Part shown: in pieces, positions 8,123 through 61,747 of the stretch | How positions within the stretch are numbered: the first letter of the stretch is position 1 | Layout: every line of letters starts with the position of its first letter | Assembly: GCA_964473825.1 (NCBI GenBank) | Contig: CAYYQL010000003.1 | Span: forward strand, 76,992 to 140,991 | Reading direction: 5' to 3' | Source: an uncultured archaeon | GTDB taxonomy: Archaea; Asgardarchaeota; Thorarchaeia; Thorarchaeales; Thorarchaeaceae | DNA: 64,000 nucleotides | Translations under genes and position numbers: made by a program | Notes under the pieces: generated by a model | Databases searched by the model: none | Seen by the model: the letters and a program-made list of their open reading frames with translations, nothing else | Told to the model about the DNA's origin: nothing

Positions 8123-8169
8123 CCTCTCCCAACATGATTTATCTTAGATGAACGTGATATCTACGCACC

Positions 8170-17755: not shown

Positions 17756-18511
17756 CTACTTGAGATACTCCTCAATCACACCATGAGTTGCCTTCTTCCA
17801 TTCCACTGACTTCTTGGCAAGTTCCATAGCTATGTCGCCAGGGAGTGATTCGTCTTTAGAGTATTCTTCCATCTTCGACAGCCATGCGCTTGTCGTCAGT
17901 GAAGTGGGCTGAACTTCCTCGCCCTCAGTGGCTTTGATTAGCATCTCTCTTCCGTGTGCGACCTGAATGTAGATTGAGCTGAGCGGTGCTTTGTTGAGGA
18001 TCTCAAATACCAGTCGGTCCCAGCACATCTTTGCAGTCAACGCTCGTTTCAGTCTGCTTTGCTCGTCGTCGGGGAGTTCATTGTACTTCTGAACTGCGTC
18101 TTCGAAGCGTTCTGCGATTCCATCCACCATCGGTTTCAGTGCGGATTCATCCTCTCCCCATGCAGTGAATTCAACGGAGCGTTGAGCCTCTTCAACCCAT
18201 ATCCGTATCGTAACATCTCCATCATCCGACTTGACCGAAAATATTGCCTTACCCTTGAAAATTTGACTCTCGGCCTCGCTATACTCATTCAGGATTACCC
18301 CTGGTTTGCCGGCGACAGTATACCAGGCCAACCTGAATATAACTGACGACTCAGGTCGGTCATAGCTTAGAGTCCGTGAGATCTTGGGGCGATCATCCAT
18401 CTCTTCCAAGCGAACACTCCCGATGATATCTCTATGAAATTTTACCGAGTTCCTTATAGAGTTTGGCTGTCGCTCCCTCAACATCCTTTCTTCTTGCTCC
18501 AATTGCCGCAT
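17756..18511 (-). CDS. hypothetical protein co-oriented downstream of SepSecS (the start probably lies at an internal Met)
   Basis: 251-aa ORF on the same strand. The track ORF overlaps SepSecS by 80 nt, so the true start is probably MLRERQ or MDDRPK. No P-loop or other recognisable motif. Confidence 0.45.
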   Translation of the reverse strand: MRQLEQEERMLRERQPNSIRNSVKFHRDIIGSVRLEEMDDRPKISRTLSYDRPESSVIFRLAWYTVAGKPGVILNEYSEAESQIFKGKAIFSVKSDDGDVTIRIWVEEAQRSVEFTAWGEDESALKPMVDGIAERFEDAVQKYNELPDDEQSRLKRALTAKMCWDRLVFEILNKAPLSSIYIQVAHGREMLIKATEGEEVQPTSLTTSAWLSKMEEYSKDESLPGDIAMELAKKSVEWKKATHGVIEEYLK

Positions 18512-19754
18512 TCATCACGATGTAGCTATGAGGGTAGTTGTCTACAGATGACCCTCGTGCCCCTCTTTCTACTGCTCGGGGACCGGTCACTCTTCGCGTG
18601 TATAATCTCGCTCCCAGCTCATTGGCATCAATACCATCAAGGGTCATGGCACAGGAAATGGGGTTCTCAACTCTCAGGACTCTTTGGCCCAACTCGTCTG
18701 CCATCTCTGATAGTCTGGACTCCAGAAGTCTGCGGTTTATCTTCTGTTCCTCCATCAGCTCACGATACCCATCGTGACCGAGAACTAGAAGAGCGGCCAA
18801 TGTCTGCACAACTGGAGCCGCAGAGGCTCTTCCTGCATATGTTTCAGCAATACCCTCAATGCAAGCTTCATCGGGAGATACAACTACTGTTCCACCAACG
18901 GGTGTGAGAAAGTTCTTGTCATTGCTCTGAACAACGGCATCTACTCTACCAGCATCAACTGCGGATCTGACAGCCTCCATGATGGACTCGGATTGGACAC
19001 CATATGCATTGTTGATGACCATTGGTATATCTCTTTCTTGACAGACTCTTGCGATGGCCTTGATTGGATCTGACTCGCGGGGCGCGAAGAATGTGGTTGT
19101 TGCAAGTATTGCGCATTTGGTCTCTTGTGAAGCAGCTTTCTCCAAGCTATCTAGATCACACCTGACGGCATCTCCATCGATTTTCGTTTTGATGATGACC
19201 TCCTCGAGGCCGGCCATTGCTATGCCTCTTGTCGGAGACGTGTGGTCTATTCTAGGATAGAGGACGCGTCTGACACCGTATTTCATCCTCAGATACGAGA
19301 GTGTGAGGGAGATGGTCATGCCGGTAGACATCGGAAGGATCAGCCCGTCCCTAACATTTGGAAGCCCCAGCTTTCTTATGGCATCCAGCGCGATCTGATT
19401 GGCCAGCCTTTGCATGAGTGATGCCCCTGGGGCTTTTGGCTGCGGTGCGGTGATATGCCCGCTCCTTCCTATGCCATGGTTAAATCCTGCTGAGAGTTCT
19501 CCTATCAGGTTCGACGCTATTCTGCCCTCTCGCTCTCCCACTCGGGCTGCCTCAGGATCCTTATCCGAGTCCATTGATGAGAGAATCCTGAGCAACCACT
19601 CAACCTGAAGGTCCGTGAAACCTGTTGCAGGAAACTGTCTTCGATTGAGAAGATCCTTGATGGGAGACATCAACGATTCGAAAGTAACGCCTGCTCTTCG
19701 GCGGATGCTATCCGGTAGAGTATCCATCAACCTAGTGATAATCTCGTCATTCAT
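18432..19754 (-). CDS. O-phosphoseryl-tRNA(Sec) selenium transferase (SepSecS)
   Basis: DSDKDPEAARVGEREGR..GFNHGIGRSGHITAPQPKAPGAS and DAVVQSNDKNFLTPVGG closely match archaeal SepSecS. The length is 440 aa. Confidence 0.85.
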   Translation of the reverse strand: MNDEIITRLMDTLPDSIRRRAGVTFESLMSPIKDLLNRRQFPATGFTDLQVEWLLRILSSMDSDKDPEAARVGEREGRIASNLIGELSAGFNHGIGRSGHITAPQPKAPGASLMQRLANQIALDAIRKLGLPNVRDGLILPMSTGMTISLTLSYLRMKYGVRRVLYPRIDHTSPTRGIAMAGLEEVIIKTKIDGDAVRCDLDSLEKAASQETKCAILATTTFFAPRESDPIKAIARVCQERDIPMVINNAYGVQSESIMEAVRSAVDAGRVDAVVQSNDKNFLTPVGGTVVVSPDEACIEGIAETYAGRASAAPVVQTLAALLVLGHDGYRELMEEQKINRRLLESRLSEMADELGQRVLRVENPISCAMTLDGIDANELGARLYTRRVTGPRAVERGARGSSVDNYPHSYIVMNAAIGARRKDVEGATAKLYKELGKIS

Positions 19755-21148
19755 AGTTCAATTGTCTCCTTTCGTAGAATATCGAGCCGAACCTCTTCTC
19801 CGATCTCGACAGCATCTTCGAATGTTGCCGAAACCAAACCTCTTGTTCCAAAGGCTTGGCCGATAGTCCCATTGATGCCTGAGTCAGTAGTCACATTTCG
19901 CCCTTTTAGCCTCTCGGCCCCCTTCTTACTCGTTGCGAGTCCGATGAGTAAAGTATCTCTCTCGCGAACTCTCTCGACTCTACCTACTCTGGTACGTTTC
20001 CTGAACACTACGCGGTCATCTGAGCCATCCTCTATCTCTCCGGATCCGATGATTCTCATCTGATTAGCAGGAAAGTCTGTTCTCAGAAGTAGGACTTTCA
20101 TACCTCTCTCCGCAACTACCTTCTCTCTGAGTTTGAGGATGGCCATGAATCGAGGATTTGTGACTTCGGGTTGTAAGACTCTTCTGTCTTCAACGCGTTC
20201 GAAGGGTATGATTTCGCCTGTTGTGCTGGGCATGCCGACTGCCACACTCACTGTCATTCTCTCAGTCACCCGGCCGAGATATAGGGGGTTGATTGTGATT
20301 CTTGCAGTGACCAGACTTGAAGGCCGAACGGAGTCTGGCTCCGCTAGGTAGTCCCCTCTCTCTATATCTTCATGGCCAACATCGGGAATATTGACTCCTA
20401 TGCGATCCCCCGCTCTTGCTCGCTCTCGATCCTCTCCAAAGGTCTGTATTGTCCTGACTTTGGCATGCCATCCCTTGGGACAAACTTCTATGGTCGTGCC
20501 TTGTTCGAGTTCTCCTCTTACTATTGTGCCAGTGACTACTGTGCCATGACCTCGAACCGGGAATGCATGGTCGATGGGCATGAGGAGCGGGCCCGATACG
20601 TTTCGTTCTTTGGGATGTACTATCCTCTTGAGGGCCTCTTTCAGTTCATCTATTCCCCTCGAAGACTTTGCGGAACACCGAACATACTCAACATCCCGAA
20701 ATCTGGTTCCTGCCATCACTTCCCTCATGCGTTCTTCGGCCATATCGAGAGCAGACTCATCAACAAGGTCCGCTTTGGTTATTGCCACCACAATCGAGTC
20801 GATCTCCATTGCATCAAGAACAACCAGGTGCTCTCCGGTCTGTATCTTTGGCCCCTCGTCGGCAGCTACTGTCATGATTGCTGCATCAATGATGTTGGCT
20901 CCAGCCACAACACTTCTAATCAGATCTGCATGGCCAGGTGCATCTACCAGAGTCACAAGGTATGACTCTAGTCTGAACATAGTGAATCCCAAATCAATTG
21001 TGATTCCTCTCTCTTTGGATTGTGGATGCTTATCGAGACCTGCAGTTGATGTTTTCTCCGTGAGAGCCCTGGCAAGTTCTGTCTTTCCGTGGTCGATGTG
21101 TCCCATGAGGCCCACGTGTACAGGTACGAGTTCTTTCATCAGGAACAC
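19751..21148 (-). CDS. selB: selenocysteine-specific elongation factor (archaeal SelB)
   Basis: G domain GHIDHGKT, LVDAPGH and ITKAD motifs. The 465-aa length is short (archaeal/eukaryal type). Its stop overlaps the SepSecS start. Confidence 0.8.
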   Translation of the reverse strand: MFLMKELVPVHVGLMGHIDHGKTELARALTEKTSTAGLDKHPQSKERGITIDLGFTMFRLESYLVTLVDAPGHADLIRSVVAGANIIDAAIMTVAADEGPKIQTGEHLVVLDAMEIDSIVVAITKADLVDESALDMAEERMREVMAGTRFRDVEYVRCSAKSSRGIDELKEALKRIVHPKERNVSGPLLMPIDHAFPVRGHGTVVTGTIVRGELEQGTTIEVCPKGWHAKVRTIQTFGEDRERARAGDRIGVNIPDVGHEDIERGDYLAEPDSVRPSSLVTARITINPLYLGRVTERMTVSVAVGMPSTTGEIIPFERVEDRRVLQPEVTNPRFMAILKLREKVVAERGMKVLLLRTDFPANQMRIIGSGEIEDGSDDRVVFRKRTRVGRVERVRERDTLLIGLATSKKGAERLKGRNVTTDSGINGTIGQAFGTRGLVSATFEDAVEIGEEVRLDILRKETIEL

Positions 21149-39257: not shown

Positions 39258-39887
39258 ATGGATGAATCGGACCTGACAGTTGCAGTTCTTGCCGGCGGGA
39301 ATTCAAGCCGTTTCCAGATGGAGAAAGCACTGGCCCCATTCAATGGTCGTCCGCTTGTAAAACATATGATAGACACTGCCAGTACAATCTCTCCCAATAC
39401 GTTACTCGTACTCAATGCAGAACAAGAGACTGCCCAATTCGAAGAGGTGCTTGGGAGCGTACGAGTTGTTCGTGATCCTGAGGACTCGGTCAAGAGTGCG
39501 CTGACTGGAGCAGTCACTGCATTCGAGTTCGCTGAGACTCGATACACACTTCTTCTCCCCGTCGACACACCTCTCGCGAACACCACACTTCTGAGAATGC
39601 TTGGAGACCTTGCTCCAGGCCATGGTGCAGTTGTCCCTTCTTGGCCTTCTGGATATATCGAACCCCTTCATGCTGTCTATCTCTCAGAGCATGCATATGC
39701 TAACGGTCTGGATGTGCTGGAATCAGGAAAACACCGGATGAGCGATCTGCTGGATAGGCTTCGGAATGTTCTCTTCATATCAACGGCCATCTTGGAGCAG
39801 TTTGATCCGGAACTAAACACTTTCAAGAATCTCAACACCCCTGCTGAGCTTCGCGAGCTGGAGAGCATCTTAGCCAAGCGACGCTAG
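39258..39887 (+). CDS. mobA: molybdenum cofactor guanylyltransferase-like (MobA family NTP transferase)
   Basis: LAGGNSSRF...KAL..FNGRPL N-terminal motif. Confidence 0.65.
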   Translation: MDESDLTVAVLAGGNSSRFQMEKALAPFNGRPLVKHMIDTASTISPNTLLVLNAEQETAQFEEVLGSVRVVRDPEDSVKSALTGAVTAFEFAETRYTLLLPVDTPLANTTLLRMLGDLAPGHGAVVPSWPSGYIEPLHAVYLSEHAYANGLDVLESGKHRMSDLLDRLRNVLFISTAILEQFDPELNTFKNLNTPAELRELESILAKRR

Positions 39888-40972
39888 ACCGGAATGTTCT
39901 CGTGTCTAATCCGGCAGGTGCCTTCGTGTCCTACCATGCAGGGCCCATAGGGGTCAGCCGGGGTACAGCGTTCTCCAAAGAGTGGACAATCCACCGGGTC
40001 GACCATGCCGAGAATCACCTTGTGACAGAGACAACCCGGCAGAATATCAACTGATTCGATTGGAGGGAAGTCATACTTCTCTCTCGCGTCAAAATCCGAG
40101 AATTGTTCTTTCAGGAAGTATCCCGAGTCTCTGATTATGCCTAGCCCTCTCCATGGTGCATCTCGAAGGTCGAAGGTATCGCTGAGAGCCTTCTGTGCTG
40201 CTGGATTTCCTCCAGGTCTCACGACACGTCTGTATTCATTCTCTGATTCTGCTCTCCCCTCTTCTAACTGGACTAGTATCATGCGGATGCTCTCCAGAAC
40301 ATCTAGAGGCTCAAATCCCGCCGCCACGCATGGCACATGATATTTGCTTGCTAAGGGTTGAAAGACCTCTGTTCCAGTGACTACACTAACATGTCCGGGA
40401 GTGATGAAACCATCAACTGCAAATCCCTCAATATTCATCAGAAGATCCATGGCGGGTGGAATGACCTTGAGAGAAGTGAGCACAGAGAGGTTCTCAGGAG
40501 GAGTGCGAAGCACTTCCAAAGCTATTGTCGGCGCTGTTGTTTCGAAACCCGCCGCAACGAAGATGACCTCCTTGTTTGGGTTGTCCGCTGCTATTTTGAC
40601 TGCCTCGTTCGCGCCATAGACAACTCGGACATCTGCCCCTTCAGCCTTCTCTCGGGCTAGAGAGGAATCTGTTGAAGGAACACGTATCATATCTCCGAAG
40701 GTTGCAACAATATGACCTCTTCGGGCAAGCTCAATGGCCATGTCAACATCTTCGGCCGCGCAGACACAGACTGGACAGCCAGGACCAGCGACCAGTTCTA
40801 TTGTCTGGGGAAGAAGGGATCGAATGCCATTGCTACTTATAGTATCTTCATGGGTTCCGCATACGTGCACGATTCTGAAATGTCGGTTCCGACTCAATCT
40901 CCTGATTTCATCTACAACCGCGTGAGCATATCTAGCATCTCGAAATCCACTCTGTTCAAGCATGGGCCCCAT
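39884..40972 (-). CDS. hypD: [NiFe]-hydrogenase maturation factor HypD
   Basis: CGTHE, GPGCPVC, GFETT and a C-terminal C..C..C cluster. The start was taken at an internal Met of the track ORF, which ends at 41095. Confidence 0.8.
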   Translation of the reverse strand: MGPMLEQSGFRDARYAHAVVDEIRRLSRNRHFRIVHVCGTHEDTISSNGIRSLLPQTIELVAGPGCPVCVCAAEDVDMAIELARRGHIVATFGDMIRVPSTDSSLAREKAEGADVRVVYGANEAVKIAADNPNKEVIFVAAGFETTAPTIALEVLRTPPENLSVLTSLKVIPPAMDLLMNIEGFAVDGFITPGHVSVVTGTEVFQPLASKYHVPCVAAGFEPLDVLESIRMILVQLEEGRAESENEYRRVVRPGGNPAAQKALSDTFDLRDAPWRGLGIIRDSGYFLKEQFSDFDAREKYDFPPIESVDILPGCLCHKVILGMVDPVDCPLFGERCTPADPYGPCMVGHEGTCRIRHENIPV

Positions 40973-41200
40973 GTCCGACTCATACCGGAAAGCTATGAAT
41001 AAAAGAAATCTGCTTGAGGCCACTACTCCTGATAATAATCTGTTTCTTACAGTTTGGTGAGTGAGCCTCCCCTGTAAGAGACTTCTGCGTTCCACCCCTC
41101 CCCTGCCAGCGTCCAGAGCGGGATGTCAGCAAGGGGGGGAATCTTACATATATCTGACACTCTTGTCTGACAGATTAACTAGGAAAAGGGGGTATTTTCA

Positions 41201-41503
41201 CTACTCCTGAACCATATCGTCAAGTATCACAAGCGCTTCTCCGATGGATATGGATAGTCTTGTTGCCAGTTCTCTCGGACTGATATCTGGTTCTACGGGT
41301 ACGATGTTCTCTCTCACGTATCCCGAAAGATTCGCATATAGTGGGCTTCTGTGTGTGGTTTCAACCAGAATGTTCCAGAGTGGATGTGTCTTGAAGTTCG
41401 CCTTGTCAATATCAATTCCCCTTGTCGAGGGGTATTTTTGCTCGACATGTTCGGAGCTAGGAACAACCTCGTTGTTGGGTTTCGTCAGTCTCTCTTGCTT
41501 CAC
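41201..41503 (-). CDS. hypothetical protein with a C-terminal HTH-like segment
   Basis: ..ISPRELATRLSISIGEALVILDDM.. resembles a winged-helix recognition helix. Confidence 0.35.
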   Translation of the reverse strand: MKQERLTKPNNEVVPSSEHVEQKYPSTRGIDIDKANFKTHPLWNILVETTHRSPLYANLSGYVRENIVPVEPDISPRELATRLSISIGEALVILDDMVQE

Positions 41504-41724
41504 GTGCGAATCCTTCCCGGCATGTACGGTTACCCGTTCTTTTCAAAGCTCGCTCAACTTGAATAAAAGGATTAGGGCATCAAGCAGCCATGGCCGGAGA
41601 ATCGCGCTAAATGCAAGGCAGTTGATGGTCACTTCAACTATGCTACTGCAATGAATGCCTTGTAGTAAGGTTTAACAATGAATCGTCCGAGCAAGCACAA
41701 GACATACTGACCAATCGGTCAGCA

Positions 41725-42039
41725 TTGGGGTTTGGAATTATATTGCCAAGTGGCATACGAAGAATCGTTCTGGACGTTTTGAAACCTCACACTCCTCGTC
41801 TCACAGATCTTGCACTCATGATTACGAGAGACGAACATGTGAACGGACTGAACATCTCTCTGAAAGAAGTCGACCAAAACACTGAGAGCATAGCTATCAC
41901 AATCGAGGGCGATGACATTAGGTATGAGACTATCAAAGAGATTCTGGAGCAAGCAGGTGCAGTGATTCATTCAATCGATCAGGTCGTTGCAGGGAAGGAA
42001 TTCGTTGAGGAAGTAACCCTCCAACCGGAGAATAGCTGA
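41725..42039 (+). CDS. DUF211-family archaeal protein
   Basis: IRRIVLDVLKPH ... IEGDDI ... IHSIDQVV pattern. Confidence 0.45.
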   Translation: MGFGIILPSGIRRIVLDVLKPHTPRLTDLALMITRDEHVNGLNISLKEVDQNTESIAITIEGDDIRYETIKEILEQAGAVIHSIDQVVAGKEFVEEVTLQPENS

Positions 42040-42102
42040 ACCGATGTACGGGTCAAATCAGACATGTAAACGGATGTGTCTGGTCTGCAATGAACCGTAT
42101 TC

Positions 42103-42528
42103 TTAGGGGTTGTTTCCAAACTCATCTGTCACTCTTCGCAGCGACGAACTGCTGAGTGACTTATCAACAAGATGAATCCCCTCCTCGGTGAGAGTTCCTT
42201 TGACGTAGAATCGGCCAGCGGACTGGATATAGCAGAGCCCTTTCTCCTTGAGCCTTCGAAGACTTGCCAGGACGATCTGAGTGAGCTCTTCATCAGTTAG
42301 TTGTGGCGTACCCGTGGGAGACTGTACAATCTCGGTCATCGTGAGAACATTCTTCATACTGGATAGTTGGCGCCTGTTGTTGTCGTATGGGTTGGAGTAG
42401 AGCCAGAGTAGAACTATCAGGTCCACTATACCCAAGCCGATGTCAGGGTTTCGGCGTAGCATCCTCTTTGCCACTAGTTCTACCATTGGCATTGTTTCAC
42501 TTCTATTGTCTTCGGCAGTGCTATTCAC
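42103..42528 (-). CDS. hypothetical protein (winged-helix-like)
   Basis: 141-aa ORF. Repeat copy A lies immediately upstream of its start. Confidence 0.35.
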   Translation of the reverse strand: MNSTAEDNRSETMPMVELVAKRMLRRNPDIGLGIVDLIVLLWLYSNPYDNNRRQLSSMKNVLTMTEIVQSPTGTPQLTDEELTQIVLASLRRLKEKGLCYIQSAGRFYVKGTLTEEGIHLVDKSLSSSSLRRVTDEFGNNP

Positions 42529-42717
42529 CGTTCATTGTATGTTGGACGAACTTGAACACCAGAGAGTTGTCCTCCCAGGTAACGGTACTGGGTGGTCTCC
42601 GTCGTGGTCAGCGATGTTGTGTGAGGGACCAGCTCTCAATCATGGGCTGGAGGATATAAACTCTTACGCTGAAATGTCCACCTTTGTCCAAGTTTTCTGT
42701 AGCTGTTGGTGTAACCA
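42525..42717. repeat. intergenic repeated element, copy A (~190 bp)
   Basis: Aligns with 45285-45476 at about 88% identity overall and about 94% in the 3' 120 nt. No conserved reading frame. Confidence 0.8.
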
Positions 42718-42722
42718 TCGAG

Positions 42723-43439
42723 TCAGTCAATCAGACTCACTATGCCAGGTTCTGGCTGATATATATCACCGGAATTCATGAGCCGATCGAGGGAGGAGAA
42801 CACCGAGTTCTCCGATATCGACTCCTTACTGTAGTGCTTGACAATCCTTCTTACAGGAAGGCGTCCGCCATGCTCTCTGAGCAGTCTTAGAATGCTCTTC
42901 GACACATCGACTTCTCGAGTAACGTCTTCCGAATTCTCCCCGGAGGTGCCAACCAGTTTCACCGACCAAGGACGCGGAAAAATGAGAATGCCACGGTTTC
43001 CGAGTTTAGTGAGCTGTTCTTCTACCCAGTCCCATTCGAGTTGATACTTGGAACTGAGTTCTTCTATTCGGTTCAGAGAGCAACTCTGTCTTCGAGCCTC
43101 CCGTTCTAGGAGTTTCATGAGTCTCTTTGTCTTGCCTGTTGGTAATTCTCGCCCCTCAGAATCGTCCGAGATGTCTCCAGCATCTATGGGCTCACTCGGG
43201 ACAAGTTCGCGCACCCTATCCTTGGAGCGTTCCACCGCCTTCTTGAATTCATCACTGCTGCCTGCGTTGAACTCTTTGGTTGCCTTTGTGGCTGCGTGTT
43301 GATCATCGAACATTGCAACCGATGCCTTTGAGATGTCGATAAGCTTACCACAATAGCTACATCTTCTGCGCTTCTGGCCCACCGGCGCATTGGTGAATCG
43401 ATGGCATTTGGGACACATGAATACAAAGAACGGCTTCAC
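42723..43439 (-). CDS. N-terminal zinc-ribbon (DUF1922-like) plus C-terminal winged-helix protein
   Basis: MCPKCHRF...RRRCSYCGK ribbon followed by a helical/wH region. Confidence 0.45.
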   Translation of the reverse strand: MKPFFVFMCPKCHRFTNAPVGQKRRRCSYCGKLIDISKASVAMFDDQHAATKATKEFNAGSSDEFKKAVERSKDRVRELVPSEPIDAGDISDDSEGRELPTGKTKRLMKLLEREARRQSCSLNRIEELSSKYQLEWDWVEEQLTKLGNRGILIFPRPWSVKLVGTSGENSEDVTREVDVSKSILRLLREHGGRLPVRRIVKHYSKESISENSVFSSLDRLMNSGDIYQPEPGIVSLID

Positions 43440-43476
43440 CCAGTTTCACCTAGCTCGTTACTTCATCAGCGTAGAC

Positions 43477-43487
43477 GGTATATAACC
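43477..43487. promoter_or_regulatory. near-palindromic TATA-like element GGTATATAACC in a divergent intergenic region
   Basis: AT-rich box between the divergently oriented genes at 43439(-) and 43557(+). Confidence 0.3.
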
Positions 43488-43556
43488 AGTACTCTCCATG
43501 AACACATGAATAGCATTATATCGTAGAGACCAGGCGTGCCCCCTTGAGGCTGAAGC

Positions 43557-43775
43557 ATGGCACGGAAGGCAAAGCGAATTGTAATTGCCGCTGAACTCTG
43601 CAAGGGTTGTCATATCTGTATATCGGCATGTCCCTTTGGAGTGCTGAAGAAGGGGGATAAGGTGGACAACAGGGGTTTCTATTTGCCAGAGGTCAGCGAC
43701 ATTGATGCATGCAGAGTGTGTCGACTTTGCGAAATGGAGTGTCCAGACTTCGCAATCACGGTAGTTGAGGACTGA
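43557..43775 (+). CDS. 2x[4Fe-4S] ferredoxin
   Basis: CKGCHICISACP and CRVCRLCEMECP motifs. Confidence 0.8.
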   Translation: MARKAKRIVIAAELCKGCHICISACPFGVLKKGDKVDNRGFYLPEVSDIDACRVCRLCEMECPDFAITVVED

Positions 43776-43881
43776 TTCTGACTGACTTCATTCCACGAAT
43801 AAAATATGGAGTCAAATAATACACAGGGTAATATAACACCGGATTCATTGAGATACGAGTTCAGACCATCGAAGGTGCGGA

Positions 43882-44448
43882 TTGTTGAGTGATAGCAGAG
43901 TCAGGATGTTACTGGAACTGCGGAGGGAGCTTGAGGACGAGCTTGAGAAGCTAAAGGAGAGAATCCAGCAACTCGAGAGTTACACCAAAGCACTTGACGC
44001 CACAATTGGAGCGAGTAGTTTCTCAACAGCACAGGCTGCGTTGGCAGCTGAAGAACCTGAGCAGAGGGATATCATGGAGGAGGTTCCGTCCAAGGGGCCC
44101 CGGACTCTAGGGATCAAGCACAAGTCGAAGGACCTAGAACTTGCCACCATGCAGGTCACAGAGGATGAGATAGCAATCACCCCGGCCCCTCACGCATTGT
44201 ATGATATCAAGCGAGGAGCATTCGCCAGATTCTTTGTGGAAAGAATCCTGGGCGGTTTTCAACAGGAGGACAAACATCGTGTGGAAAATGGGGAAATAGA
44301 ATGGGAGGATTCTTTCGATTTTGATATCCAAGCGGAGGACAGCATTCTCCAGGGAATCTTCATCCGCAACTACGGGGGAGAGGAACGACTGGAAGAAATT
44401 CGGAATGCACTAAGATGGGCACTTGAAAAGACATATCGTCCACGCTAG
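43882..44448 (+). CDS. hypothetical protein (N-terminal coiled coil)
   Basis: 188-aa ORF. Confidence 0.35.
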   Translation: MLSDSRVRMLLELRRELEDELEKLKERIQQLESYTKALDATIGASSFSTAQAALAAEEPEQRDIMEEVPSKGPRTLGIKHKSKDLELATMQVTEDEIAITPAPHALYDIKRGAFARFFVERILGGFQQEDKHRVENGEIEWEDSFDFDIQAEDSILQGIFIRNYGGEERLEEIRNALRWALEKTYRPR

Positions 44449-44561
44449 ACAGCAGGGCAAAAAGGCGCGTTCTACACTTACCTCAGTTTCCGATGCAAAA
44501 CGGATATATCCTTGGCAACTGAAACGTTTGTTGCCTATGTTGACACGAAGGAGAGGTAGCA

Positions 44562-45188
44562 GTGCATTACGATGACGAGGCGCATCCCGGATTCAACCCC
44601 CACGACGTGGTTAATATCGTACGAGATGCGCACGAGTATTTCAAGGAGAGTAATGTCGATGAACGATATGAGGCAGTGGCCTTAGATCTCATCCGGAGGT
44701 ATGTGTCAACAGAGGGAAGGCCACGGGAACTTGAACCACTCTATGCAGCCTCTCTTTACTTGGTGACTCGACATCCCTGGAGCCACCCCAACCCCCTCAC
44801 AAGAACCGAGTTCGCCAGTAAACTCCGGATCAAAGAGTCGAGTTTAGAGTGGTATACTGAGTCTATCATTGAGAAGCTTGGATTCGAGGTCTTTCATGAC
44901 CATGGCCAGCTACCTTTCTACATAGACCCAAGAGGAACTATCTCGAGTGTCATTAACTCCGTGGTAAGGACGAGTGTAAGCGAAGAAGTGGTCTTGGGTA
45001 TTGTGAGAGGGGGGGCTGTGGCACCAAGTGCGCTCGCAGAAAGAATAGTGGAACGCCTCTGCAGAATCGTGAAGATTCTTCCAAATGCCTTCGAGAGAGA
45101 TTTGTTCACAATAGTAGAGAAGAAGATAGAAGAACAGAGTGGGCGACTACTTGCTGAGCTAAAGCAAGGTGCAGCAATGGGACTCTAG
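44562..45188 (+). CDS. hypothetical protein, possible single cyclin-like/TFB-core-like fold
   Basis: ..LYAASLYLVTR..PLTRTEFASKLRIKESSLEWYTESIIEKLGF resembles a TFB cyclin repeat. The resemblance is weak. Confidence 0.3.
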   Translation: MHYDDEAHPGFNPHDVVNIVRDAHEYFKESNVDERYEAVALDLIRRYVSTEGRPRELEPLYAASLYLVTRHPWSHPNPLTRTEFASKLRIKESSLEWYTESIIEKLGFEVFHDHGQLPFYIDPRGTISSVINSVVRTSVSEEVVLGIVRGGAVAPSALAERIVERLCRIVKILPNAFERDLFTIVEKKIEEQSGRLLAELKQGAAMGL

Positions 45189-45284
45189 CTAATCCGAGTG
45201 GTCAACACCGCGTGGACTCAACAGTCAGACCGTAACTCAGACGGAATATTTGGCATCGGATTCGGTGTCTGGTTCTAAGAGGAA

Positions 45285-45476
45285 TCGTTCATTGTATGTT
45301 GGACAGACTTAGACACCGGAGAGATGTTCCCCCGGGTAACGGCGTTGGGTGTTTTCCGTCGTGGTCAGCGATGCTGTGTGAGTGACCAGCTCTCAATCAT
45401 GGGCTGGAGGATATAGACTCCTATGCTGAGATGTCCAACTTTGTCCAAGTTTTCTGTAGCTGTTGGTGTACCCTAT
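45285..45476. repeat. intergenic repeated element, copy B (~190 bp)
   Basis: Direct repeat of 42525-42717. Confidence 0.8.
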
Positions 45477-45510
45477 ATGTAAGATTCTTGCCTTCTGGAT
45501 GTGGCAATTG

Positions 45511-45526
45511 GTAATGTTTAAATGTG
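45511..45526 (+). promoter_or_regulatory. candidate BRE/TATA (AATGTTTAAATG) for the uL22-led ribosomal operon
   Basis: TTTAAAT box about 215 nt upstream of the uL22 ATG, at the head of a 546-nt intergenic region. Confidence 0.4.
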
Positions 45527-45735
45527 AACTATTTTGGCATCTGAGTGTCGCTCTCTGATAGTGACTGTTCGGAACGGAAGGAAGCAGTGCAGGTTCTTGA
45601 TTCTGCTCGCGGAAGTGGCCTGTATACGTGTGCCGGAGGTTCTGGGTAGCCATTGAGGGTGCCATGATGAGGAGACTACCTACCAATAGCGGAAGGTGAG
45701 CTTTTCATAGGTCACAAGACCAGAAGTGAGGTACC

Positions 45736-46200
45736 ATGCCGTCGTACAGATACAGCATAATTGGCATTGACCCGGACAGGACTGCCATAGCCAGCGGAAG
45801 AAACATGCGATGTTCGCCAAAACATGCGAGAGAAGTGTGTGAGGCCATTCGTGGCATGATGCTCGATAAGGCGATTGAGTTGCTTGAGGAAGTCATTGAG
45901 GAGAAGGCATGGATTCCGTACAAGCGCCACAAGAAGAAGAGAGCGCATCATTCTGGCATGAAGAAATGGCATACTGGTGGCCATCCAGTGAAGGCATCCC
46001 AGAGAATTCTGAGAGTGCTGAGAAATGCAGAGGCCAACGCAGACAACAAGGGTCTAGACATTGATCGTCTGAGAATTATGCATGCCGCAGCTCACAGAGG
46101 CAGGACATACAAGAAGTATATCGAACGCGCCTTTGGGCGGAGTACCCCCTATAACGAGAATACAACACATGTGGAGATTGTTCTAGAAGAGGTGTCATAG
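45736..46200 (+). CDS. rpl22: 50S ribosomal protein uL22
   Basis: Archaeal L22 sequence and position directly before S3. Confidence 0.9.
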   Translation: MPSYRYSIIGIDPDRTAIASGRNMRCSPKHAREVCEAIRGMMLDKAIELLEEVIEEKAWIPYKRHKKKRAHHSGMKKWHTGGHPVKASQRILRVLRNAEANADNKGLDIDRLRIMHAAAHRGRTYKKYIERAFGRSTPYNENTTHVEIVLEEVS

Positions 46201-47112
46201 TTGTCGGCAGTTAAGTACTTCATCGAACGCAACACTCGCAAGCTAGCTCTTGATGAATTTCTGAACCGTGAGCTCAACGCTGCAGGTTATGGTGGCCTTG
46301 AGATTCGGAAGATGCCCATGAGGACAGAGGTAGTGATTTACTCCTCTCGTCCAGGTGTCGTTATCGGACGCAGAGGGTCCAAGGTTCGTGAATTGACTTA
46401 CATACTTGAAACAGAATTCGGTATAGAGAACATTCAGATCGAGGTCAGTGAGATTGAGAATCCTTGGCTCAATGCTCAGGTTATGGCCTCTAGACTGGCA
46501 AGACAGCTTGAACGAGGCGTTCGCTTCCGTAGAATGGCTTACTGGATTCTAAGGCGGATTATGCGTGCAGGCGCTCTTGGCTGTGAGATTGTTGTGAAGG
46601 GCAAGTTATCCAGTCGTAGAGGACGGTACCAGAAGTTTAAGCAATCCACCGTTGCAAAGACTGGAGAACCTGCTGACACATTCGTTGATTCGTCCTATGA
46701 TAAGGCTGTTCTCAAACCTGGTGTTACTGGCATCAAGGTCAGCATAATGAAACCCGGCGCCAAACTGCCTGGTGTTGTTCATGTGAAGAAACCAAAGCAC
46801 AGAGAGGAGCCAGAACCACAACTTCTCAAAGAACCTACAGAAGAAGAGGAACCTGACGAAGAGGCTGTTGAGGAAGGCCTTGAGGGAATCACTGACATGG
46901 ATGAACTTCGCGAGTTAGAAGAGCTTGACGCTTTGGAGCTTGTTGAGGATGCTGAACTGGAGGCAGAACAGCGTGAGACTCCGCCGCCAAAGCCAGAGGA
47001 AACCTCAGACGACACTCCTGACCAAGAGGCGCCTTCAGAGGAGGCCCCCTCTGTTGATCTGGAAGAACTAGAAGAGCTTGACGACCTTGATACCGAAGGA
47101 GAGGATGAATAA
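46201..47112 (+). CDS. rps3: 30S ribosomal protein uS3 with a ~90-aa acidic C-terminal tail (TTG start)
   Basis: KH domain (..GGLEIRKMPMRTEVVIY..). The C-terminal third is an E/D/L-rich low-complexity region. Confidence 0.9.
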   Translation: MSAVKYFIERNTRKLALDEFLNRELNAAGYGGLEIRKMPMRTEVVIYSSRPGVVIGRRGSKVRELTYILETEFGIENIQIEVSEIENPWLNAQVMASRLARQLERGVRFRRMAYWILRRIMRAGALGCEIVVKGKLSSRRGRYQKFKQSTVAKTGEPADTFVDSSYDKAVLKPGVTGIKVSIMKPGAKLPGVVHVKKPKHREEPEPQLLKEPTEEEEPDEEAVEEGLEGITDMDELRELEELDALELVEDAELEAEQRETPPPKPEETSDDTPDQEAPSEEAPSVDLEELEELDDLDTEGEDE

Positions 47113-56137: not shown

Positions 56138-57592
56138 ATGCCCGAGGTAAAGGCGCCAGATAGAGAGGTCTCGTTCCGTGAGAAGGCTGTATGGACCATC
56201 GTTGTTCTCATAATCTTCTTGGTTATGAGCCATATGCCTCTGTATGGAGTCAACAAAGATGTCGGGACTGACTATCTGTGGGCCATGCGAGTCATTCTAG
56301 CCAGTACACGTGGAACATTGATGGAGCTTGGAATAGGACCAATTGTCACTGCAGGACTTGTTATGCAGCTCCTCTCAGGTTCAAAAATAATCGATGTTGA
56401 CTATAGCGATCCTGAAGATCGAGCCCTGTTCACAGGTGGCCAGAAAGTACTTGCAATGTTGATGACTGGCTTTCAGGCTTTTGCCTACCTCGTGGGAGGA
56501 GCATATGGTGAGCTCCAACCTACTCAAGAGGTCATAGTGTTTCTGCAGCTCTTTGTTTCTGGAGTCGTCGTCATTCTCATGGACGAGCTCATCCAGAAGG
56601 GATGGGGTCTTGGGTCCGGTGTGTCCCTGTTTATCATGACGAATGTTGCAGGACAAGTAATCTTCAACTCTCTTGACACTCTCAACACAGAAGCTGTAGC
56701 ACCAACAGGCTATCCGGAGGGTGGCACTGGCCTGCCAAAGGGTATCATAGCAGCTCTTATCTCCAACATCCTGCGAGTATTCGGTGTAGGCAGTGAGGTC
56801 TATCCCCCTGTAGATTTCACTTGGTTGTTCTTCAGAGACGGGTATAATCCAAGCATATTTGCACTGCTGGTGACCATTGGAATCCTCTTCGGTGTTTTGT
56901 GGATGGAGAGTGTGAGAGTCGAAGTACCGCTACAGTACGCACGATACCGCGGAATGAAGGCTAGGTATCCTATCAAACTGCTCTATACCTCGAATATACC
57001 TGTCATTCTTGCACAGGCTCTCTTTGCAAACATACTATTCTTTGCACAGATCATCTTCACCAACTTCAATCAAGATGGGACTAACCCGTTCCTCAGCTGG
57101 ATTGGGGTCTTTGAGCAACAGGAGGGCAGTACACAGATGGTGGCCACTGCAGGCCTATCGCGGTACATCACGCCGCCTCAGGGCCTCATGGTATTCACCC
57201 AACCAGATGGCATACTACATGTGTTATTCTATGCGGGATTCATGATCCTGTTATGTTGGGGATTCAGCACCATCTGGGTTGAGATAAGCGGCATTGCTCC
57301 ACGCGATGTATCTCGCCAGCTGCTGGGCTCAGGATACATTGTTCCTGGATTCAGAAGGAGCGAAAAGGTCTTGGAGCGATTGCTTCAGCGCTACATCCCA
57401 ATTGTTGCAGGACTTGGCGGTTTCCTAATTGGAGTTCTTGCGTCCTTTGCTGATGTTCTCGGGGCGCTCGCCAGTGGTACTGGTATACTGCTCATGGTGT
57501 CTATTATCAAGCAATACTACGAGCAGATTGCAAAAGAACAGCTTGCAGAAATGGGTGGCGAAGGAGTATCAGGCCTACTAGGAATTCTGTAG
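56138..57592 (+). CDS. secY: preprotein translocase subunit SecY
   Basis: 10-TM SecY sequence. The N-terminal MPEVKAPDREVSFREKAVWT matches archaeal SecY starts; the track ORF begins at 56093. Confidence 0.9.
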   Translation: MPEVKAPDREVSFREKAVWTIVVLIIFLVMSHMPLYGVNKDVGTDYLWAMRVILASTRGTLMELGIGPIVTAGLVMQLLSGSKIIDVDYSDPEDRALFTGGQKVLAMLMTGFQAFAYLVGGAYGELQPTQEVIVFLQLFVSGVVVILMDELIQKGWGLGSGVSLFIMTNVAGQVIFNSLDTLNTEAVAPTGYPEGGTGLPKGIIAALISNILRVFGVGSEVYPPVDFTWLFFRDGYNPSIFALLVTIGILFGVLWMESVRVEVPLQYARYRGMKARYPIKLLYTSNIPVILAQALFANILFFAQIIFTNFNQDGTNPFLSWIGVFEQQEGSTQMVATAGLSRYITPPQGLMVFTQPDGILHVLFYAGFMILLCWGFSTIWVEISGIAPRDVSRQLLGSGYIVPGFRRSEKVLERLLQRYIPIVAGLGGFLIGVLASFADVLGALASGTGILLMVSIIKQYYEQIAKEQLAEMGGEGVSGLLGIL

Positions 57593-57779
57593 AATTGGGG
57601 CCTATCCATGGTCCCAGTGCCCCTCTCTCACTCAGTTCACCGGCACTGACTGGCTTACAGATCCTTGTGCATGCATATAAGCTGGTCTCAGCCACTCATA
57701 AGCGAACTATCCACAGAATGATATATATCAATGACAAACCGTCGCATCGATTAGACGCTAAGAACAAGGTGAGAACGAA

Positions 57780-61334: not shown

Positions 61335-61747
61335 TCGTTTCTCATGTACTAAAGCGAATATTGATTTACTAGTACGGGGACCAGTACGTGGCCCTGGAGC
61401 GAAAGCGCAACTGACGGTACTCATCATTCTGATGAGAGCTGAGGAAGCTCCCAACTACAGTCGGTGCCGGTCCTGTGCAAGCAGGGAGGTGAGAGCCTCG
61501 CTCTGGGAACAGAAACGACACCTCCAAGCCACAAATGACAATGATGCGGAAGTTGAATCCGTTGAGAAGTGTCTTGGTCCGGTTGAAACGACCCATCACC
61601 GTGTAGCAACTCCAAGAATACATCGTTGACGTGCCGACCCGAGGTGTAGGGTAGGAGGCTTAGTCTGATGTTGCAAGGTTCTCGCGTGGCAACACGCCTG
61701 AACGGAACAGAATTGGGGCTATTCTTCGGACCAGGGCCAATCCCATT

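What the first reader, a model, noticed from the sequence alone, without database searches (positions are those of the whole stretch)
42525..45476. Diverged ~190-bp element present twice as direct repeats around a 2.6-kb gene block
Positions 42525-42717 and 45285-45476 align end to end (begins CGTTCATTGTATGTTGGAC, ends GTAGCTGTTGGTGTA). Identity is about 88% overall and about 94% in the 3' 120 nt, whose core is CCGTCGTGGTCAGCGATG.TGTGTGAG.GACCAGCTCTCAATCATGGGCTGGAGGATATA. Substitutions are not codon-periodic and copy B has stops in every frame, so the element is noncoding. One copy is in the divergent upstream region of the gene at 42103-42528. The other is in the long leader region before the uL22 ribosomal operon. 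Together they flank four genes: a DUF1922-like zinc-ribbon/wH protein, a ferredoxin, and two hypotheticals. Possibilities are a small structured RNA family, a MITE-like mobile element, or remnants of att or LTR-like boundaries of an old insertion.
Basis: seen in the sequence. Interest (0 to 1): 0.65.

Follow-up and report, generated by a model that had tools for sequence, protein, structure and literature searches.

The report
Young short interspersed repeat in Thorarchaeota
The two ~185-base repeats are real, non-coding copies of a short DNA element found only in one Thorarchaeota lineage; at least one copy inserted recently, the genes between them were always there, and nothing suggests a functional RNA, so this is a modest, fairly ordinary case of small mobile-like DNA.

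Summary
The repeat is confirmed, with slightly shifted coordinates: A is 42528/9-42712/3 and B is 45286-45470, gapless, 88% identical, same orientation. The window is from a Thorarchaeota (Asgard) MAG. A sister-species genome (GCA_964558645.1, locus L044) has the same gene order but lacks copy A. There the two flanks abut, so A is an exact 185-bp insertion with no target-site duplication, placed in the 45-nt spacer of a two-gene operon. At site B, L044 keeps only about 52 nt matching B's right end, at a neutral level of divergence (69%). The 2.6-kb block between the copies is not an insertion. All relatives have it, and it is merely inverted in this lineage. The element is non-coding, has no Rfam hit and no significant fold. 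It carries 17-nt subterminal inverted repeats built from TTGGACA heptamers. Assembly-graph breaks in independent metagenomes imply at least one more A-like copy outside the window. A second small insertion (X, 41033-41198, 12-bp target duplication) shares a ~60-nt module with B. Best reading: a young, lineage-restricted, MITE-like interspersed repeat that is probably neutral. It fails the tests for classical MITE and for IS200/IS605 membership. No other copy was recovered from public collections.

The parts
42528..42712 (+). Copy A: exact 185-nt insertion into the intercistronic spacer between the 238-aa gene (stop at 42723, minus strand) and the 129/127-aa gene (start 42492/42486, minus strand)
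   Evidence: L044 positions 8155|8156 are contiguous (...GCTATTCA|AACCATCG...), whereas the window has 185 extra nt there, with no duplicated and no lost target bases. L023 also shows an empty site.
45286..45470 (+). Copy B: 185 nt homologous to A, between the 208-aa gene stop (45188) and the uL22 promoter
   Evidence: Alignment. L002/L044 lack its first ~135 nt but have 52 nt that are 69% identical to its last 52 nt.
42542..42558 (+). Left subterminal inverted-repeat arm of A (TTGGACGAACTTGAACA; two TTGGACA-like heptamers 10 nt apart)
   Evidence: the repeat finder I1; 13/17 complementary to 42675-42691; 11 of 300 shuffles reach this.
42675..42691 (+). Right subterminal inverted-repeat arm of A (TGTCCACCTTTGTCCAA)
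45299..45315 (+). Left subterminal inverted-repeat arm of B (TTGGACAGACTTAGACA)
   Evidence: 14/17 complementary to 45432-45448; 1 of 300 shuffles reaches this.
45432..45448 (+). Right subterminal inverted-repeat arm of B (TGTCCAACTTTGTCCAA; tandem 10-mer TGTCCAACTT/TGTCCAAGTT)
45192..45285 (+). 94-nt lineage-specific spacer immediately left of B; absent from L002/L044
   Evidence: Borderline similarity in direct orientation to junction J1. No other match.
45471..45492 (+). Short stretch right of B, absent from L044/L002. It continues the homology of B's right end with the reverse complement of element X (exact 14-mer at 45474-45487).
41033..41198 (+). Element X: a second lineage-specific 166-nt insertion, between the 100-aa gene stop and the HypD start. 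Its right end (reverse complement) shares a ~60-nt module with the right end and flank of B.
   Evidence: Absent in L044 and L023. rc(X) versus the B region scores 16.5, reached by 1 of 300 shuffles. Logan contigs from two samples break inside it at 41171.
41021..41032 (+). Left copy of the 12-nt target-site duplication of X (CACTACTCCTGA); the right copy is at 41199-41210
   Evidence: the repeat finder D1, 100% identical. The site is single in L044 (CACTACTCTGAA) and L023.
42103..45188 (.). Five-gene block (129, 238, ferredoxin, 188/180, 208 aa) that is inverted in the window/L044/L002 lineage relative to other Thorarchaeota. It is ancestral, not inserted.
   Evidence: Gene orders (ancestral order) versus (inverted, as in the window).
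45493..45735 (+). uL22 operon promoter (TTTAAAT 45517-45523) and ~190-nt conserved leader. It bounds site B on the right and is not part of the element.
   Evidence: 97% identical to L044, ~90% to L023, conserved in six loci.

Best explanation
The repeat is a young, non-coding, short interspersed DNA element confined to one species-level lineage of Thorarchaeota. It most likely spreads, or spread, as a non-autonomous mobile element copied at the DNA level by a function encoded elsewhere. Shown: copy A is a precise 185-bp gain. It arose after the split from the sister species, inside a 45-nt operon spacer, 35 nt upstream of the downstream gene's start codon. It caused no target duplication or loss. 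Shown: copy B sits in a compound, fast-evolving spacer between the 208-aa gene and the uL22 promoter. Its right ~52 nt already existed in the common ancestor with the sister species and has drifted at the neutral rate. Shown: the four genes between the copies are ancestral neighbours that were inverted earlier, so the 'flanking' arrangement is coincidental. Inferred: at least one more A-like copy, and a second copy of the related element X, exist outside the window. Inferred: the paired TTGGACA heptamers in inverted subterminal arms are the sites recognised by whatever protein mobilises the element. Inferred: both insertions sit in permissive intergenic sites and are selectively neutral, neither RNA genes nor regulators.
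For: Exact empty site for A in L044, polarised by outgroups L023, L003 and L007, which also lack it. The insertion edges coincide with the A/B homology edges to within 1 nt. The element is non-coding: stops in all frames of B, and a six-frame peptide query against 5.8 billion proteins found nothing. Subterminal 17-nt inverted repeats made of phased heptamers occur in both copies. Neutral divergence between window and L044 is ~20% at 4-fold sites and 27% in spacer J1. A-B divergence of 12% is therefore compatible with copying after the split, and the 69% identity of L044's fragment to B's right end is compatible with neutral orthology. Further copies are implied by the assembly graph. A k=31 graph of the window alone predicts unitigs 1-42656, 42684-45413 and 45441-end. 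The latter two ends are matched exactly by L001, L048 and L049. But contigs L046/L047, from two samples, span 41171-42608. That requires another sequence sharing A positions 51-80, which include A-specific bases where B differs, and another sharing X's right end. A second small insertion with a 12-bp target duplication lies 1.3 kb away and shares a module with B, so small insertions were active in this lineage.
Against: Only two copies are directly seen, and they are 2.6 kb apart. No further copy was recovered from GTDB representative genomes, JGI metagenomes or IMG/VR with exact 18-24-mers, nor by nhmmer in about 150 kb of related loci. There are no inverted repeats at the very termini and no target-site duplication for A. 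No transposase or integrase lies in the 64-kb window. At site B the indel relative to L044 (45192-45420 plus 45474-45492) does not coincide with the A/B unit. B's boundaries are therefore not independently defined, and A could simply be a one-off copy of part of that spacer. The third copy is inferred from contig end points, not seen.
Confidence: 0.55

Rival explanations
1. One-off, non-transpositional duplicative insertion. A 185-nt stretch of the neutral spacer at site B was copied into a break in the 238-129 spacer 2.6 kb away, by template-switching or synthesis-dependent repair. There is no mobile family, and the inverted heptamer arms are incidental.
For: The copies are close together and in the same orientation, with no target duplication and no terminal inverted repeats. 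B's right end is ancestral, and B continues to be homologous with X beyond the A/B boundary, so A looks like a partial copy of a longer pre-existing sequence. The indel at site B is not congruent with the A/B unit. The junctions allow 0-1 nt (left) and 1-3 nt (right) of microhomology, by direct reading of the alignment.
Against: Logan contigs from two samples end at A position 80, where B cannot cause a branch, which implies a third A-like sequence (validated). The copied unit is bracketed near-symmetrically by a statistically unusual inverted repeat. A neighbouring insertion X with a genuine 12-bp target duplication shows that insertional activity occurred in the lineage.
Confidence: 0.22
2. 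A small structured RNA gene, or cis-acting RNA, that has been duplicated. The better-conserved 3' 118 nt would be the functional core.
For: The 3' part is significantly better conserved between A and B than the 5' part (93% versus 80%, p=0.009). Several A/B differences keep predicted pairs through G-U on the plus strand, and one pair is compensatory. A strong local hairpin, CCAGCTC-N8-GGGCTGG, is identical in both copies.
Against: No Rfam match at E<=10. Fold energies are not better than shuffles, and the MFE structures differ between copies. The minus strand gives equally many 'supporting' pairs. The element is absent at site A in the sister species and all relatives. The shared right end of B is only 69% identical between sister species, while the adjacent uL22 leader is 97% identical. 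The two copies have opposite relations to neighbouring genes, and no shared promoter lies at the homology boundary.
Confidence: 0.1
3. A portable cis-regulatory module. For example, a promoter could be carried on the minus strand (TTTATATCC at 42648-42640) that now drives the 129-aa gene independently of the 238-aa gene. Alternatively the heptamers could form a binding-site array for a local transcription factor.
For: There is a TATA-like box on the minus strand of A about 150 nt upstream of the 129-aa gene start (direct reading). Paired heptamers at helical phasing resemble operator arrays.
Against: The TATA-like box is weaker in B (TCTATATCC), where the minus strand faces the 3' end of a convergent gene. 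The heptamer pair is not enriched elsewhere in the window. Relatives express the same operon without it, with spacers of 0-51 nt.
Confidence: 0.06
4. att or LTR-like boundaries left by integration of the 2.6-kb gene block.
For: Direct repeats flank a gene block.
Against: The block is conserved between DUF211 and uL22 in relatives at 55-95% protein identity. L044 has the block with no copy A. There is no integrase. The repeats are 12% diverged, and A is younger than the block.
Confidence: 0.01

Closest known systems
MITEs (miniature inverted-repeat transposable elements) of archaea and bacteria, e.g. the Sulfolobus SM elements, and modular intergenic repeats such as Correia/BOX/RUP elements (recalled from general knowledge)
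   Same: Short (166-185 nt), non-coding and intergenic. There is presence/absence polymorphism with a clean empty site. Inverted repeats lie near both ends. The structure is modular and shared between related elements (A/B and X). No transposase lies inside. The distribution is restricted to one lineage.
   Different: The inverted repeats are subterminal (13 and 25 nt in from the ends), not terminal. Copy A has no target-site duplication. Only two copies are seen directly. No autonomous partner is known.
IS200/IS605-derived non-autonomous elements (PATEs); features as described in PMC10055086. The family is the most abundant IS family in archaea and is present in >65% of Asgard genomes (PMC13343696).
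   Same: Insertion without terminal inverted repeats and without target duplication; small and gene-less; the host phylum is rich in the parent family.
   Different: There are no stable, conserved subterminal hairpins at either end on either strand. No shared transposon-adjacent motif lies next to the two copies (TTCA versus GAAT; reverse orientation GGTT versus GGGT). There is no omega-RNA-like or other Rfam match. No TnpA/TnpB gene is in the window.
Templated or 'filler' insertions made during break repair (general knowledge)
   Same: A single short copy of nearby DNA inserted precisely, without target duplication, in the same orientation, with at most 1-3 nt of junction microhomology.
   Different: Graph evidence points to a further copy elsewhere. 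The copied unit is bracketed by an inverted repeat. A related neighbouring insertion (X) has a real target duplication.

Membership tests
Classical MITE | Short, non-coding, no transposase inside | tested here: met
   185 nt. Stops in every frame of B. No protein match for any frame.
Classical MITE | Terminal inverted repeats at the very ends | tested here: not met
   The termini CGTTCATTG... and ...GTTGGTGT are not complementary. The only inverted repeat is subterminal, 13/17-14/17.
Classical MITE | Target-site duplication flanking each copy | tested here: not met
   A is inserted between adjacent L044 bases with no duplicated bases. In contrast, X has a 12-bp duplication.
Classical MITE | Multiple dispersed copies in the genome | tested here: inconclusive
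   Two copies in 64 kb. A third is inferred from contig ends. None was recovered from public collections.
Classical MITE | Empty sites in related genomes (insertion polymorphism) | tested here: met
   Site A is empty in L044/L045, L023, L003, L004 and L007.
Classical MITE | Autonomous element with matching ends | not testable with these tools
   No transposase in the window. The rest of the genome is unavailable.
IS200/IS605-derived PATE | No terminal inverted repeats and no target duplication | tested here: met
IS200/IS605-derived PATE | Subterminal imperfect palindromes (hairpins) at both ends on the same strand | tested here: not met
   DNA folds of the 65-nt ends of both copies on both strands give z from -0.4 to +1.1, and the structures are not conserved between copies.
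IS200/IS605-derived PATE | Conserved 4-5-nt transposon-adjacent motif at the left end of every copy | tested here: inconclusive
   The flanks differ (A TTCA, B GAAT; reverse orientation GGTT versus GGGT). B's boundary is not independently defined, and there are only two copies.
IS200/IS605-derived PATE | Omega-RNA-like structured RNA at the right end (frequent, not obligatory) | tested here: not met
   No Rfam match at E<=10 and no significant fold.
Structured small RNA family | Conservation and covariation across species | tested here: not met
   Absent in the sister species at site A. The shared part of B is 69% identical, while the adjacent leader is 97%. Two copies give one compensatory pair on either strand.
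Structured small RNA family | Thermodynamic stability above background, or a match to a known family | tested here: not met
   z from -0.05 to -1.3. Rfam gives nothing.
Structured small RNA family | Discrete transcript | not testable with these tools
   No expression data.
att/LTR boundaries of an integrated element | The enclosed block is absent from relatives, and the repeats are absent together with it | tested here: not met
   The block is present in all relatives; in L044 it is present without copy A.
att/LTR boundaries of an integrated element | Integrase or recombinase within or next to the block | tested here: not met
   Pfam finds a weak DUF1922 match, ferredoxin, and two proteins with no family.
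Diversity-generating retroelement TR/VR pair | Mismatches confined to adenines of one copy; reverse transcriptase nearby | tested here: not met
   The 22 differences are 17 transitions of all types and 5 transversions. No RT domain in the neighbours.

The most novel reading that the evidence does not exclude
A/B and X could belong to an undescribed class of modular, gene-less mobile elements of Asgard (Thor) archaea. They would insert precisely, sometimes without any target duplication, using phased TTGGACA-type heptamer arrays rather than terminal inverted repeats or IS200/IS605 hairpins. That would imply a transposition or recombination mechanism, and a trans-acting enzyme, not yet assigned to any IS family. 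They would have been active recently enough to distinguish sister species.
Probability: 0.15. Interest if true: 0.5.

Novelty: new member of a known kind. Interest (0 to 1): 0.3.

Why it matters
Short non-autonomous repeats have hardly been described in Asgard archaea. My literature search for miniature inverted-repeat elements in Asgard found nothing relevant. A lineage-specific element with clean empty sites in a sister species is a useful marker of recent genome dynamics in Thorarchaeota. It also explains why short-read assemblies of this population break at exactly these points, which can mislead binning and synteny analysis around the ribosomal-protein operon. The work also corrects an attractive but wrong reading: the gene block is not a mobile island. 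Beyond that, the biological consequence appears small, because both copies sit in permissive spacers and seem to drift neutrally.

Tried and rejected
1. Known RNA family: the Rfam gathering scan of the whole window found only archaeal RNase P at 61395-61733, and E<=10 scans of 42300-45800 and 40900-42400 found nothing relevant.

2. Stable RNA structure: not significant on either strand. Two-sequence alifold cannot tell the strands apart.

3. Coding or pseudogene origin: no frame is open in both copies. A chimeric six-frame peptide query found no protein. B against the neighbouring 129-aa gene is not significant at DNA or protein level.

4. More copies by exact seeds:
- GTDB representative genomes, 18-mer: 15 chance bacterial hits.
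- JGI metagenomes, 24-mer: 0 hits. 19-mer: 10 chance hits. The best, L034, is a 35%-GC contig with a bacterial-type response regulator.
- IMG/VR, three seeds: only seed-length matches.

5. nhmmer with A+B, the shared module, X and the 94-nt stretch against the window and the relatives' loci: nothing new.

6. Inversion mediated by inverted element copies: J1 against rc(A) or rc(B) is not significant.

7. Homology of the junction spacers to L023's DUF211-208 spacer: not significant.

8. IS200/IS605-type end hairpins: absent.

9. Transposase or integrase in the window: none among 36 ORFs scanned.

10. tRNA-derived origin or tRNA att site: no tRNA in the window.

11. DGR template/variable repeat: the substitution pattern does not fit.

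12. SecY-adk spacer as a further copy: not significant.
Full report
OBSERVATION. The two copies are real. A gapless alignment joins 42529-42713 to 45286-45470 on the same strand. There are 22 differences in 188 aligned columns (88%): 17 transitions and 5 transversions. Fourteen fall in the first 70 nt and eight in the last 118 nt (Fisher p=0.009). Homology stops abruptly on both sides. These are the only two copies in the 64-kb window (BLAST word 7; nhmmer --max).

ORGANISM AND CONTEXT. uL22 homologues place the window in a Thorarchaeota (Asgard) MAG whose NCBI contig is 153,639 bp. Pfam confirms the neighbours: a weak DUF1922 match in the 238-aa protein, a 2x[4Fe-4S] ferredoxin, two proteins with no family, DUF211 upstream and uL22 downstream. 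The gene next to copy A really starts at 42492/42486 (MPMVELV...). The 127-aa form is the one on record.

THE GENE BLOCK IS ANCESTRAL AND INVERTED, NOT INSERTED. In four other Thorarchaeota loci (L003/L004, L007, L023) the order is DUF211(+), 205-208 aa(-), 188 aa(-), ferredoxin(-), 231-238 aa(+), 127-146 aa(+), uL22(+). The window has DUF211(+), 129(-), [A], 238(-), ferredoxin(+), 188(+), 208(+), [B], uL22(+). So the whole five-gene block is inverted. The same inverted order occurs in L002 and in L044/L045, the 245-kb contig of GCA_964558645.1. Genes of L044 are 90-97% identical to the window at the nucleotide level and 80% identical at 4-fold degenerate sites, which fits a sister species. 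The inversion therefore predates the split and is unrelated to copy A. This removes the att/LTR reading.

SITE A. In L044 the bases ...GCTATTCA|AACCATCG... are adjacent (positions 8155|8156). In the window they are separated by exactly 185 nt, 42528-42712. No base is duplicated and none is lost. The more distant L023 also shows an empty site, and L003 and L007 have spacers of 48 nt or overlapping genes there. Copy A is therefore a derived, precise insertion made in the window's lineage after the split from L044. Its edges coincide with the A/B homology edges to within one base. It lies in the intercistronic spacer of the 238-129 operon, 35 nt upstream of the 129-aa start. By direct reading, the Shine-Dalgarno-like GAAGTGA is kept, and there is no run of more than three T on the mRNA strand, so read-through is probably tolerated (inference).

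SITE B. L002 and L044 have 56 nt between the 208-aa stop and the conserved uL22 promoter, where the window has 301 nt. They lack 45192-45420, which is the 94 nt plus the first ~135 nt of B, and they lack 45474-45492. They keep 52 nt that align without gaps to the last 52 nt of B at 67-69% identity (nhmmer E=0.07 across all loci, but at the orthologous position and in register). I first read this as too diverged to be orthologous, because the flanks are 94-97% identical. Those flanks are a coding gene and a strongly constrained promoter/leader. Neutral sites between the two genomes are only 80% (4-fold sites) and 73% (spacer J1) identical. The fragment is therefore compatible with plain orthology. 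So the right end of B existed in the common ancestor and has drifted neutrally. Whether the remaining 229 nt were gained in the window lineage or deleted in the sister lineage cannot be polarised, because genomes outside this clade do not have this junction. Either way, the indel at site B is not congruent with the 185-nt unit, so B's boundaries are defined only by its homology to A.

ANATOMY. The element has no inverted repeat at its very ends. It has a 17-nt inverted repeat placed 13 nt from the left end and about 25 nt from the right end. In A the arms are 42542-42558 and 42675-42691, 13/17 complementary. In B they are 45299-45315 and 45432-45448, 14/17 complementary. That score is reached by 11 of 300 dinucleotide shuffles for A and 1 of 300 for B. 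Each arm consists of two TTGGACA-like heptamers 10 nt apart. All four arms match TGTCCAANNNTGTCCAA with at most two mismatches, but the pattern is not enriched elsewhere in the window. As RNA, neither strand folds better than shuffles (z -0.05 to -1.3), and the two copies give different optimal structures. Consensus folding of two sequences gives one compensatory pair on each strand and cannot discriminate. Rfam gives nothing even at E<=10. DNA folding of the terminal 65 nt shows no stable or conserved end hairpins.

MORE COPIES: DIRECT SEARCHES FAILED, INDIRECT EVIDENCE IS POSITIVE. Exact-seed scans of GTDB representative genomes, JGI metagenomes and IMG/VR returned only chance matches. The source MAG itself is evidently not in those collections. 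A six-frame peptide query found no called ORF over any other copy.

The Logan contigs of this population are nevertheless informative, because they break wherever a 31-mer is shared. A k=31 de Bruijn graph built from the window alone predicts unitigs 1-42656, 42684-45413 and 45441-end. L001 is exactly 42684-45413, and L048 and L049 both start exactly at 45441, so the reasoning holds. But the contig to the left of A, recovered identically from SRR7048220 and SRR15699983, spans 41171-42608 rather than running to 42656. Its end requires another sequence that is identical to A over positions 51-80. That stretch contains five A-specific bases where B differs. The other sequence must also differ from A at position 50, where A and B agree. 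This is neither B nor an A/B chimera. A co-occurring close relative would fragment the whole region, which is not seen. The simplest reading is a third, A-like paralogous copy outside the window.

A SECOND SMALL INSERTION. The other end of that contig, 41171, falls inside a stretch of the window that L044 and L023 lack. This is a 166-nt insertion, X, at 41033-41198, flanked by a perfect 12-nt direct repeat CACTACTCCTGA. The repeat occurs once in the empty sites, so it is a target-site duplication. X lies between the 100-aa gene and HypD, and it makes the HypD ORF look 44 codons too long. The contig break implies that X also has another copy elsewhere. The reverse complement of X's right end aligns with B from about position 144, through the A/B boundary, into the 19 nt right of B, including an exact 14-mer (score reached by 1 of 300 shuffles). 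X and B therefore share a ~60-nt module, and B's own sequence continues where A stops. So A is best seen as derived from a B-like source, or from another family member, rather than the reverse.

INTERPRETATION. The evidence supports a young, lineage-restricted family of short, non-coding, insertion-generated repeats: MITE-like in behaviour, with a modular relationship to a second element. I put 0.55 on a trans-mobilised, non-autonomous element. I put 0.22 on a one-off repair-templated copy of neutral spacer DNA. That rival explains the lack of terminal repeats and target duplication, the proximity of the copies, and the non-congruent indel at B. It does not explain the inferred third copy or the bracketing inverted repeat. 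A structured RNA (0.10) is disfavoured by the absence of conservation, of fold signal and of any Rfam match. A portable regulatory module (0.06) rests only on a TATA-like box and the heptamers. The att/LTR idea is refuted.

On family membership, the element fails the defining tests of classical MITEs (terminal inverted repeats, target duplication). It also fails the test of IS200/IS605-derived PATEs (subterminal hairpins; features as in PMC10055086). It shares with IS200/IS605 the duplication-free insertion mode, and that family is the commonest IS family in Asgard genomes (PMC13343696). No transposase or integrase lies in the window.

LIMITS. Copy number, consensus ends and target preference cannot be established without the rest of the genome or the reads. 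The third copy is inferred, not seen. The polarity of the difference at site B is unresolved. The similarity between junction J1 and the 94 nt left of B is only borderline after multiple tests (6/1000 and 16/1000 shuffles).

Noticed in passing
window 41021-41210: Element X: a 166-nt lineage-specific insertion (41033-41198) with a perfect 12-bp target-site duplication, CACTACTCCTGA. It is absent from L044 and L023. Logan contigs from two samples break inside it at 41171, which implies further copies elsewhere. It shares a ~60-nt module with the right end and flank of copy B.
   Followed up: partly
window 42103-45188 (junctions 42040-42102 and 45189-45492): The five-gene block between DUF211 and uL22 is inverted in the window/L002/L044 lineage relative to four other Thorarchaeota loci (L003, L004, L007, L023). 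No inverted repeats were found at the junctions that could have mediated the inversion.
   Followed up: partly
window 45493-45735: The uL22 operon promoter (TTTAAAT at 45517-45523) and a ~190-nt leader are 97% identical to the sister species and ~90% identical to L023, more conserved than the neighbouring coding DNA. An alignment of six Thorarchaeota loci gives a ~120-nt long-range stem structure with 7 pairs showing compensatory change. There is no Rfam match. This is a candidate conserved ribosomal-protein leader or ncRNA.
   Followed up: partly
window 39884-41095 (-): The HypD ORF is listed as 403 aa, but relatives have 359 aa. The extra N-terminal ~44 codons run into element X and are spurious. 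The true start is near 40964.
   Followed up: yes
window 42040-42102 versus 45228-45285: The 63-nt junction after DUF211 (J1) shows borderline similarity, in direct orientation, to the 94 nt just left of copy B (reached by 16/1000 shuffles; 6/1000 with L044's J1). This is unexplained and may be chance after multiple tests.
   Followed up: partly
window ~57573-57779 (SecY-adenylate kinase spacer): Logan contig L048 is 12,162 nt long, starts at 45441 and so ends at about 57602, 10 nt after the SecY stop. The window-only k=31 graph predicts no break there. This may mark another repeated sequence. The 187-nt spacer is not significantly similar to A/B or X. Only one sample shows it, so a coverage drop is not excluded.
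   Followed up: partly
window 61395-61733 (+): Archaeal RNase P RNA (RF00373, 151.9 bits, E=5e-43), complete.
   Followed up: no
window 18432-21148 (-): Adjacent genes for SepSecS (O-phosphoseryl-tRNA(Sec) selenium transferase) and the archaeal selenocysteine-specific elongation factor aSelB, so this Thorarchaeon carries selenocysteine-incorporation machinery.
   Followed up: no
window 46201-47112 (+): uS3 carries a ~100-residue, strongly acidic (E/D-rich) C-terminal extension. Homologues in the relatives have similar lengths (286-309 aa).
   Followed up: no
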